Assembly (NCBI GenBank): GCA_964016885.1
Contig: CAXHJY010001474.1
Span: 1 to 64,000 of the forward strand
Reading direction: 5' to 3'
DNA length: 64,000 nucleotides
From: Eledone cirrhosa
Lineage: Eukaryota
The notes below the pieces were generated by a model. It was not told where the DNA came from. It was given only the letters and a program-made list of their open reading frames with translations, and made no database searches. Both the position numbers and the translations under genes were made by a program. Below are positions 25,560 to 26,010 of the stretch, piece by piece. Position 1 is the stretch's first letter, and every line of letters starts with the position of its first letter.

Positions 25560-26010
25560 CATGCGCATGTATTGTTTTTGGCGGTAGCCTCCTTCCTCCC
25601 ATTTTCGGGACAGTATGAGATTTTCTTTAGAACTGCTGGACTAACAACCTAGCAGTCCCCTCAAGCAAGATATTGATATTTATTTGGTTATCAATATTAA
25701 TATTATTGGGTACCCACTGAAGATTTATAAGAGCCCACTTGTATAAGTATCTGTTGATCTTATACAAGCTTCTACATAACTTGGTATAATTTCACCCAAC
25801 TTGTAGAAATCTTACAAGGAAACGAATCGTCTGGGAAATGAGATATTTGATATATCTCATATGAAATAATACAATTTTCCACACAATACAATATAGTTAG
25901 CACCCCAAACGTTAAATTGGGAATATACTCAGGTATTTCCTAATGTTTGTTGTTGAGTGAGTTGGAATTTGGCCGGAGTATCGCTTTTAGCTTTCTCCGA
26001 TTATGTATTT
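25560..26010 (+). mobile_element. Family G element; branched-helix-II HHR at 25713-25835
   Basis: ccca-CTGAAGA-tttataaga..two hairpins..tcttacaag-GAAA-cgaatcg-TC-tggg; second copy at 56428-56900. Confidence 0.8.

What the first reader, a model, noticed from the sequence alone, without database searches (positions are those of the whole stretch)
25713..25835. Hammerhead with branched helix II and a candidate pseudoknot (family G)
Seen: helix II (tttataaga/tcttacaag; attataaga/tcttatagt in the 56599 copy) encloses two hairpins, cttgtataag/cttatacaag and ttctaca/tgtagaa. The junction segment GCCCA can pair with the strand 5' of stem I: TGGGT in copy 1 and TGGGC in copy 2. The cleavage site is GUC. 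Known: stem I-stem II tertiary contacts accelerate natural HHRs. Inference: an unusual multi-way-junction architecture.
Basis: partly seen in the sequence, partly recalled or inferred. Interest (0 to 1): 0.75.

Follow-up and report, generated by a model that had tools for sequence, protein, structure and literature searches.

The report
Knotted, branched hammerhead in jumping repeat
A very abundant non-coding jumping repeat in this animal genome carries a hammerhead RNA motif, predicted to cut itself, whose side arm branches into two hairpins kept by paired mutations and is likely tied back by a four-base-pair knot; motif and host are of known kinds, and the shape appears to be a new variant.

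Summary
Confirmed with corrections. 25713-25835 is a type I hammerhead with an intact core, inside a 0.7-1.0 kb non-coding repeat (7,458 genome matches to its 3' 17-mer; eight subfamilies, 62-90% identical). Across 18 representatives the branched helix II holds: 15 of 42 pairs change on both sides (helix II 4 of 9, hairpin IIa 5 of 10, IIb 2 of 10). The pseudoknot is 4 bp (GGGY/GCCC), not 5. It is conserved in all eight subfamilies and fits H-type geometry, but has no compensatory change, so it stays likely, not shown. The 56599 copy has a broken core (G12U). Helix III is a covarying palindrome, which points to cleavage as a dimer. 5' ends of copies pile up 0-14 nt after the predicted cut (13 of 86 versus about 3% elsewhere). 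The repeat's end resembles that of an ORF-bearing Hydra-clade Penelope element here, its likely helper. Verdict: a non-LTR retrozyme-like Penelope parasite with a new hammerhead variant; cleavage untested. This scan noted the same kind of long, branched stem II before on other DNA of this genome.

The parts
25365..26012 (+). 5'-truncated copy of the ~698-nt non-coding repeat unit (subfamily G), ending at the fixed TGTATT/(TA)n end
25416..25499 (.). unrelated short interspersed repeat inserted into the element, flanked by a 9-bp direct repeat (25407-15, 25500-08)
25708..25711 (+). pseudoknot 5' strand GGGT (GGGC in most copies); 25707 is the optional fifth pair
25713..25716 (+). stem I 5' strand
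25717..25723 (+). catalytic core CUGAAGA
25724..25732 (+). helix II 5' strand
   Evidence: 4 of 9 pairs with both-sided change
25733..25736 (+). pseudoknot 3' strand GCCC, directly after helix II
25738..25768 (+). hairpin IIa
   Evidence: 5 of 10 pairs with both-sided change
25770..25808 (+). hairpin IIb (7-bp outer stem, 3-bp inner stem)
   Evidence: 1 of 7 and 1 of 3 pairs with both-sided change
25810..25818 (+). helix II 3' strand
25819..25831 (+). core GAAA, palindromic helix/loop III and GUC triplet; predicted cut between 25831 and 25832
25832..25835 (+). stem I 3' strand
25836..26012 (+). conserved 3' region (64% of columns invariant over eight subfamilies), ending in a motif resembling the end of a Hydra-type Penelope element; likely the reverse-transcriptase start region
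56428..56899 (+). second copy between (TA)n tracts; hammerhead 56593-56721 with G12 changed to U at 56705 (core broken)

Best explanation
This is a type I hammerhead motif with a two-hairpin branched helix II, predicted to cut its own RNA, in a 0.7-1.0 kb non-coding repeat that is likely copied into (TA)n tracts by a Hydra-clade Penelope-like reverse transcriptase, and its GGGY/GCCC pairing likely forms a 4-bp H-type pseudoknot stacked on helix II. Shown by calls: the core, the host repeat, its fixed 3' end, head-to-tail units, and covariation in stems I, II, III, IIa and IIb. Inferred steps: (1) read-through or multimer transcripts cut as double hammerheads, two palindromic helices III pairing with each other; (2) the cut monomers are ligated to circles or stay linear; (3) the helper enzyme primes at the fixed TA-rich end and copies upstream, falling off just after the cut site on cleaved templates and running through it, and through the unit junction, on circles or uncut multimers; (4) the pseudoknot (stem S1 = GGGY/GCCC, S2 = helix II, 0-1 nt between them, stem I strand plus CUGANGA as loop 1, the two hairpins as loop 3) tethers stem I to the AU-rich helix II and helps rather than enables cleavage. 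Odds: real, active hammerhead family 0.85; branched fold 0.9; Penelope-type mobilisation 0.8 (Hydra clade 0.6); pseudoknot forming together with the core 0.55.
For: Structure on 18 representatives: 94.5% of cells paired, 15 of 42 pairs with both-sided change, 0 of 500 shuffles as high; slid controls 38-50% paired. RNAalifold finds IIa, IIb and GGGC/GCCC unaided. A second species' contigs show matching changes in helix II and IIa, unphased. GGGC and GCCC are the majority state in 8 of 8 subfamilies, while 16 of 64 G/C columns upstream are invariant; -9 is the only GGGY position shared by 6 of 7 units scanned, the seventh being mutated there. Helix III self-duplex is -6.4 to -14.7 kcal/mol in 16 of 18 and gives no hairpin in any; the palindrome covaries (ACGATCGT, ACGGCCGT, ACAATTGT). 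5' ends: 13 of 86 at risk fall 0-14 nt after the cut, against 0.031 per window elsewhere (P 3e-6) and 0.030 in ten TA-richer windows, across several subfamilies. Single copies begin at the cut (L080/L081, L163, L278, L188 within 1 nt) and L123 runs cut to cut. An ORF-bearing element with RWR and DKT motifs (714-aa open frame) ends in TA at a motif that aligns with the repeat's end in 3 of 4 units printed (0, 2, 3 of 500 shuffles). Published Hydra-clade hammerheads share the U-U or G-C helix II base, GUU/GUA/GUC sites, palindromic helix III and (TA)n targets (PMC8557442 File S2).
Against: No cleavage assay and no RNA data. The pseudoknot has no compensatory pair between subfamilies or as a lineage, and three insertions were copied from templates with it broken (L226, L240, L306). 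If the conserved 3' region is the background (40 of 52 G/C columns invariant), 8 of 8 invariance has P 0.12. Twelve of the 13 clustered 5' ends lie 7-14 nt after the cut at TA-like microhomology, not at it, and some may descend from shared short templates (L062, L063, L133). In a purified Penelope element cleavage was not needed for insertion and no RNA ends mapped to the cut (PMC11167929). The helper element shows no BLAST similarity to the unit and no canonical hammerhead in its 3' UTR; subfamily G's end gave only an off-target alignment (9 of 500). The 18 representatives are related, so the shuffle counts are not probabilities.
Confidence: 0.62

Rival explanations
1. Same element and branched fold, but GGGY/GCCC is an alternative, early-forming hairpin (or an inhibitory knot) that keeps the monomer or circle from cutting; cleavage needs it to open.
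For: In nested folding the pair competes with helix II: pair probability 0.54-1.0 in 9 of 9 D/F-type representatives, and the forced catalytic fold is 1.5-9.7 kcal/mol above the MFE in all 18. The consensus fold takes it instead of helix II. None of six circular monomer folds shows the active core. A hammerhead pseudoknot that slows cleavage is recalled for satRPV RNA (only the title of Song et al. 1999 was seen, in a reference list).
Against: Nested models cannot hold both helices, so they cannot tell competition from coexistence. The pairing hides no nucleotide that the active fold needs. Its spacing (0-1 nt from helix II, 1 nt from stem I) is kept in all eight subfamilies.
Confidence: 0.2
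2. The hammerhead and hairpins are real, but GGGC and GCCC are conserved for another reason (protein contact, promoter, chance) and do not pair; the big arm is a tolerated passenger or a protein dock.
For: No compensatory change; templates with a broken pairing were copied; other parts of the unit are just as invariant without a known partner.
Against: Two exactly complementary 4-mers flank the core in all eight subfamilies while their neighbours drift; the recurrent variants seen (C to U at -6, A to G at the fifth pair) keep pairing.
Confidence: 0.13
3. The motif is kept as a fold for reverse-transcriptase recognition and is not cleaving in vivo; the 5'-end cluster reflects TA microhomology or a polymerase stall.
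For: PMC11167929 found cleavage dispensable in vitro; most clustered ends are 7-14 nt off the cut; most copies run through the site (73 of 100).
Against: Core nucleotides are invariant in eight subfamilies, the triplet varies only among GUC, GUU and GUA, and TA-richer windows show no such excess.
Confidence: 0.05

Closest known systems
Type I hammerheads of Penelope-like elements, especially the Hydra clade (PMC4209133, passages; PMC8557442, section 11 and File S2 read)
   Same: Type I order, helix I of 4-5 bp, helix II of 7-9 bp, palindromic helix III, U-U or G-C at the base of helix II, GUC/GUU/GUA sites, (TA)n targets.
   Different: Loop II in the Hydra rows of File S2 is 3-10 nt (35 nt at most in the whole file); here about 75 nt form two hairpins plus a candidate pseudoknot strand. 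The host has no ORF.
Metazoan non-LTR retrozymes (PMC7229834, passages; bioRxiv 10.64898/2026.07.22.740005, part 1 of 5 and passages)
   Same: Non-coding, low-GC (31-35%) head-to-tail units with one type I hammerhead each, dispersed in thousands of copies, linked to Penelope elements.
   Different: Units are 0.7-1.0 kb, not about 220-390 nt; arrays are mostly under 2-3 units with a fixed 3' end; circular RNA is not shown here.
Pseudoknotted hammerheads of Perreault et al. 2011 (PMC3088659, passages)
   Same: A Watson-Crick helix of 4 or more pairs joins stem I and stem II regions; about 40% of hammerheads are predicted to use one.
   Different: There it was proven by compensatory rescue on short stems. 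Here helix II is longer than helix I, the partner strand sits in a three-way junction, and there is no covariation.
PK hammerhead, PDB 8YDC (PMC11300833, passages)
   Same: An extra helix stacked coaxially on the helix II position, as inferred here for GGGY/GCCC.
   Different: There a stem-loop's loop replaces helix II; here helix II is an ordinary 8-9 bp helix with two hairpins in its loop. Connectivity was compared from text only.
satRPV (+) hammerhead (recalled; only a title seen)
   Same: Recalled as a double hammerhead with a stem I / stem II pseudoknot.
   Different: A plant satellite RNA; the knot is recalled to slow cleavage. Not checked, as the paper tried was not held.

Membership tests
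Hammerhead ribozyme (type I) | Core CUGANGA, GAAA, NUH in type I order | tested here: met
   Copy 1 and the majority state of 8 of 8 subfamilies; copy 2 fails at G12
Hammerhead ribozyme (type I) | Three helices around the core with covariation | tested here: met
   stem I 1 of 4, helix II 4 of 9, helix III 2 of 4 pairs change on both sides
Hammerhead ribozyme (type I) | Site-specific self-cleavage | not testable with these tools
   Indirect only: 5'-end excess after the site
Hammerhead ribozyme (type I) | Match to an Rfam hammerhead model | tested here: not met
   the long insert is the likely cause
Pseudoknotted hammerhead (Perreault 2011) | Complementary strands of 4 or more nt linking stem I and stem II regions | tested here: met
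   GGGY/GCCC in 18 of 18 representatives
Pseudoknotted hammerhead (Perreault 2011) | Compensatory variation in the pseudoknot | tested here: not met
   None in the four core pairs; 1 of 85 and 1 of 77
Pseudoknotted hammerhead (Perreault 2011) | Rate loss on disruption, rescue on restoration | not testable with these tools
   Needs kinetics
Non-LTR retrozyme | Non-coding unit with one type I hammerhead | tested here: met
   Six-frame translation of three copies shows no long ORF; no Penelope ORF runs into a unit in the loci screened
Non-LTR retrozyme | Head-to-tail repeats with a hammerhead in consecutive units | tested here: met
   20 multi-unit loci, most head-to-tail at 0.6-1.0 kb spacing
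Non-LTR retrozyme | Small unit, about 200-400 nt | tested here: not met
   702-998 nt cut to cut
Non-LTR retrozyme | Expressed as linear and circular monomer RNA | not testable with these tools
   No RNA run was available to lay
Non-autonomous partner of a Hydra-clade Penelope element | Shared terminus and target with an autonomous element | tested here: inconclusive
   End motif aligns in 3 of 4 units printed and both end in (TA)n; no wider similarity; only one helper family was examined

The most novel reading that the evidence does not exclude
A natural hammerhead architecture not in the papers searched: the whole 5' half of the core is loop 1 of an H-type pseudoknot whose second stem is helix II, a two-hairpin domain is its loop 3, and the ribozyme cuts only as a dimer, with the knot setting the rate. 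It is carried by a 0.7-1 kb circular-RNA parasite of Hydra-clade Penelope elements whose broken copies record the cut site.
Probability: 0.4. Interest if true: 0.65.

Novelty: new variant of a known kind. Interest (0 to 1): 0.48.

Why it matters
It shows how far a natural hammerhead can be elaborated while staying invisible to Rfam, so animal ribozyme counts are likely too low. It gives eight natural sequence variants of one fold for testing whether a stem I / stem II knot speeds or brakes a dimer-dependent hammerhead. The fixed 3' end shared with an ORF-bearing Hydra-type element and the 5' ends near the cut make the assumed link between Penelope enzymes, hammerhead cleavage and retrozyme copying directly testable.

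Tried and rejected
Single-sequence folding gave no significant z-score. Rfam gave no hammerhead hit. The run search listed no RNA holder; this is no evidence either way. Runs X4, X5, X6 hold only scattered pieces. A 5-bp pseudoknot was rejected. The ACCCAA in the IIb loop was considered as the partner and rejected: it reads TCCC or TCCG in other subfamilies and pairs inside IIb. GCCC pairing with the 3' strand of stem I was rejected because that strand is UGGA in six of eight subfamilies. A coding remnant in the unit was not found. Penelope ORFs beside units lie on either side and belong to different families, so they look like co-insertions in (TA)n. A test of selection on mutations shared by tandem units was dropped as too small and biased by the core pattern; only the three pseudoknot-breaking cases are reported. 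Look-ups of earlier notes by sequence found nothing. Two papers (Song and Miller 2004; Lunse et al. 2017) were not held, so their content and supplements are unseen. Literature searches for a branched natural stem II (listings, plus passages of the papers cited) showed no such report, but subscription journals and most supplements were not searched.

Full report
Observation. The motif is a type I hammerhead: stem I CCCA/UGGG, CUGAAGA, a 9-bp helix II closing about 77 nt, GAAAC, and GUC with the predicted cut after 25831. The second window copy (56603) has U at G12 and is likely dead. Alone, neither copy folds better than shuffles, and Rfam does not see the motif.

Host element. The window is G000:C1501 of a 3.0-Gb animal genome rich in microsatellites; a cephalopod is my inference from that and from Hydra-type proteins resembling the published octopus one. 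The motif lies in a dispersed repeat with a 698-nt unit, no long ORF and a fixed 3' end: of 100 sampled ends, 71 run into (TA)n after TGTATT, 10 run on into the next unit, 3 are ambiguous and 16 lack the exact motif, most of these also ending in TA. A 17-mer from the 3' region has 7,458 matches and 0 for the control; 57 of 100 sampled units reach past -120 and so cover most of the motif. Twenty loci hold two or three motifs, mostly head to tail, two inverted, two mixing subfamilies. Cut-to-cut units measure 702-998 nt.

Subfamilies and covariation. The closest copies are 97% identical over the motif and uninformative. Relaxed patterns and DNA searches gave 204 distinct motif copies that sort into eight subfamilies of 3 or more, 62-90% identical, plus one singleton. 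I chose 18 natural copies by hand to span them. On the stated structure 94.5% of 749 cells pair and 15 of 42 pairs change on both sides; 0 of 500 shuffles reach this and slid structures pair 38-50%. By helix: II 4 of 9, IIa 5 of 10, IIb 1 of 7 plus 1 of 3, stem I 1 of 4, III 2 of 4. The base pair of helix II is U-U in most rows (11 of 18 not a standard pair), a variant known to be tolerated (PMC3088659, passage). Two B-type rows are misaligned at stem I, which costs two cells. The copies are related by descent, so these are counts, not probabilities. Contigs of another organism (run X8) carry A to G and U to C at one helix II pair and U to C and A to G at one IIa pair, unphased. All eight subfamilies keep both hairpins.

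Pseudoknot. Four pairs (GGGY/GCCC) are kept in 18 of 18 representatives, two invariant and two with one G-U change; the fifth pair is broken in 4 of 17. Both 4-mers are the majority state in 8 of 8 subfamilies. Against the upstream background (16 of 64 G/C columns invariant) that is unlikely by drift (0.25^8), against the whole unit 0.003, against the conserved 3' region 0.12. RNAalifold picks this helix unaided. There is no compensation: of 85 genome copies changed at one junction C and 77 at the next, one each has the restoring partner, about what independent mutation gives; the other two pairs were not tested this way. Three of 20 multi-unit loci share a breaking change in both units, so the pairing is not needed for every copying event. 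The strand order is that of a classical H-type pseudoknot (recalled geometry): GGGY, a 12-nt loop holding the stem I strand and CUGANGA, helix II, 0-1 nt, GCCC, the two hairpins, helix II. This would stack the knot on helix II and give the hairpins a role as its third loop. That is inference; nested folding cannot test it and shows the two helices as competitors.

Dimer cleavage. Helix III is 8-13 nt and self-complementary. It gives no hairpin in any of 18 copies and a self-duplex of -6.4 to -14.7 kcal/mol in 16. The innermost pair, with 0-1 nt between its partners, changes A-U to G-C in one lineage, which only makes sense between two molecules or two units. This matches the dimer model for metazoan and Penelope hammerheads (PMC4209133, PMC7229834, PMC6765202; passages).

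Trace of cleavage. A cluster of 5' ends near the cut was first seen in 46 G-anchored loci, then tested on 100 units from the first listed matches on contig C1 (three overlap the first sample). Thirteen of 86 units at risk end 0-14 nt after the cut, against 0.031 per 15-nt window elsewhere (P 3e-6) and 0.030 in ten TA-richer windows. Only one of the 13 is exactly at the site, one more is at -1, and twelve are 7-14 nt downstream at TA-like sequence, so trimming at integration must be assumed. L123 begins and ends at cut sites. Against this, a purified Penelope protein did not need cleavage for insertion (PMC11167929, parts 1-2 of 4).

Likely helper. Earlier scan notes pointed to the Hydra clade. 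File S2 of PMC8557442 shows Hydra hammerheads with the same core style and targets but loops II of 3-10 nt. A search with a neighbouring ORF fragment found a large family with open frames of about 713 aa bearing RWR and DKT motifs. Its copies end in (TA)n at a motif that aligns with the repeat's end and end-to-start junction in subfamilies D2, D and C (0, 2, 3 of 500 shuffles) but not G (9 of 500, off target); two of six units printed nothing. One unit is fused directly to that element's last 120 nt (L286). There is no wider similarity and no canonical hammerhead in that element, so the clade is a lead, not the proven partner.

Comparison and novelty. It works like a non-LTR retrozyme and carries a Penelope-type hammerhead; it fails the small-unit feature and the RNA features are untested. 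Pseudoknots between stems I and II are common (PMC3088659), and long helices II are known from Penelope elements. A natural helix II opening into two hairpins with a knot strand in the junction did not appear in my searches, within their limits. This scan has already noted long or branched stems II several times in this genome; whether those are this superfamily I could not tell, as sequence look-ups were empty.

Verdict. Real, well-supported branched hammerhead variant in a retrozyme-like Penelope parasite; pseudoknot likely but unproven; cleavage inferred. New variant of a known kind, interest 0.48.

Noticed in passing
window 3480, 31954, 39321, 43443, 55032: Five further type I hammerhead motifs of a different, simpler family (AT-rich stem I, palindromic TATATA/TATGTA helix III, unbranched helix II).
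   Followed up: partly
window 57080-57330: A perfect inverted repeat whose centre lies inside helix II of a hammerhead, giving one motif on each strand (57111 minus, 57254 plus).
   Followed up: no
L091-L120 (e.g. L098, L110, L116): Another abundant hammerhead family (most of 975 pattern matches, control 29) with a 60-nt, apparently unbranched stem II, an extended stem I and a CGCG palindrome in helix III; subfamilies show paired changes by eye.
   Followed up: partly
window 60916-63999: A 1,028-aa open frame with endonuclease, reverse transcriptase and PHD-finger matches, a LINE-type element cut by the window end.
   Followed up: partly
L213, L309 and other D-type units: The ~1-kb units owe their length to an internal duplication of about 300 nt of the unit's 5' part.
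   Followed up: no
L189, L078: Head-to-tail arrays that mix subfamilies (C then B; F then G), suggesting template switching or insertion into an older unit's junction.
   Followed up: no
L012, about 230-100 nt upstream of the partial unit: A stretch that looks like an antisense 5S rRNA fragment (recalled, not searched) sits directly before the unit's 5' end.
   Followed up: no
window 25416-25499, 26026-26130 and many loci: A short interspersed repeat inserts repeatedly into AT-rich spots of this element (also L006, L012, L018, L065, L142).
   Followed up: no
L364 3' UTR (3250-3720): The Hydra-type element has a long 3' UTR with an internal ~150-nt duplication and no canonical hammerhead on either strand; a variant core may be present.
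   Followed up: partly
subfamily B (L175-L204): Helix III carries a 4-nt duplication that creates two GUC triplets and the strongest self-duplex (-14.7 kcal/mol) in the youngest-looking, very abundant subfamily.
   Followed up: partly
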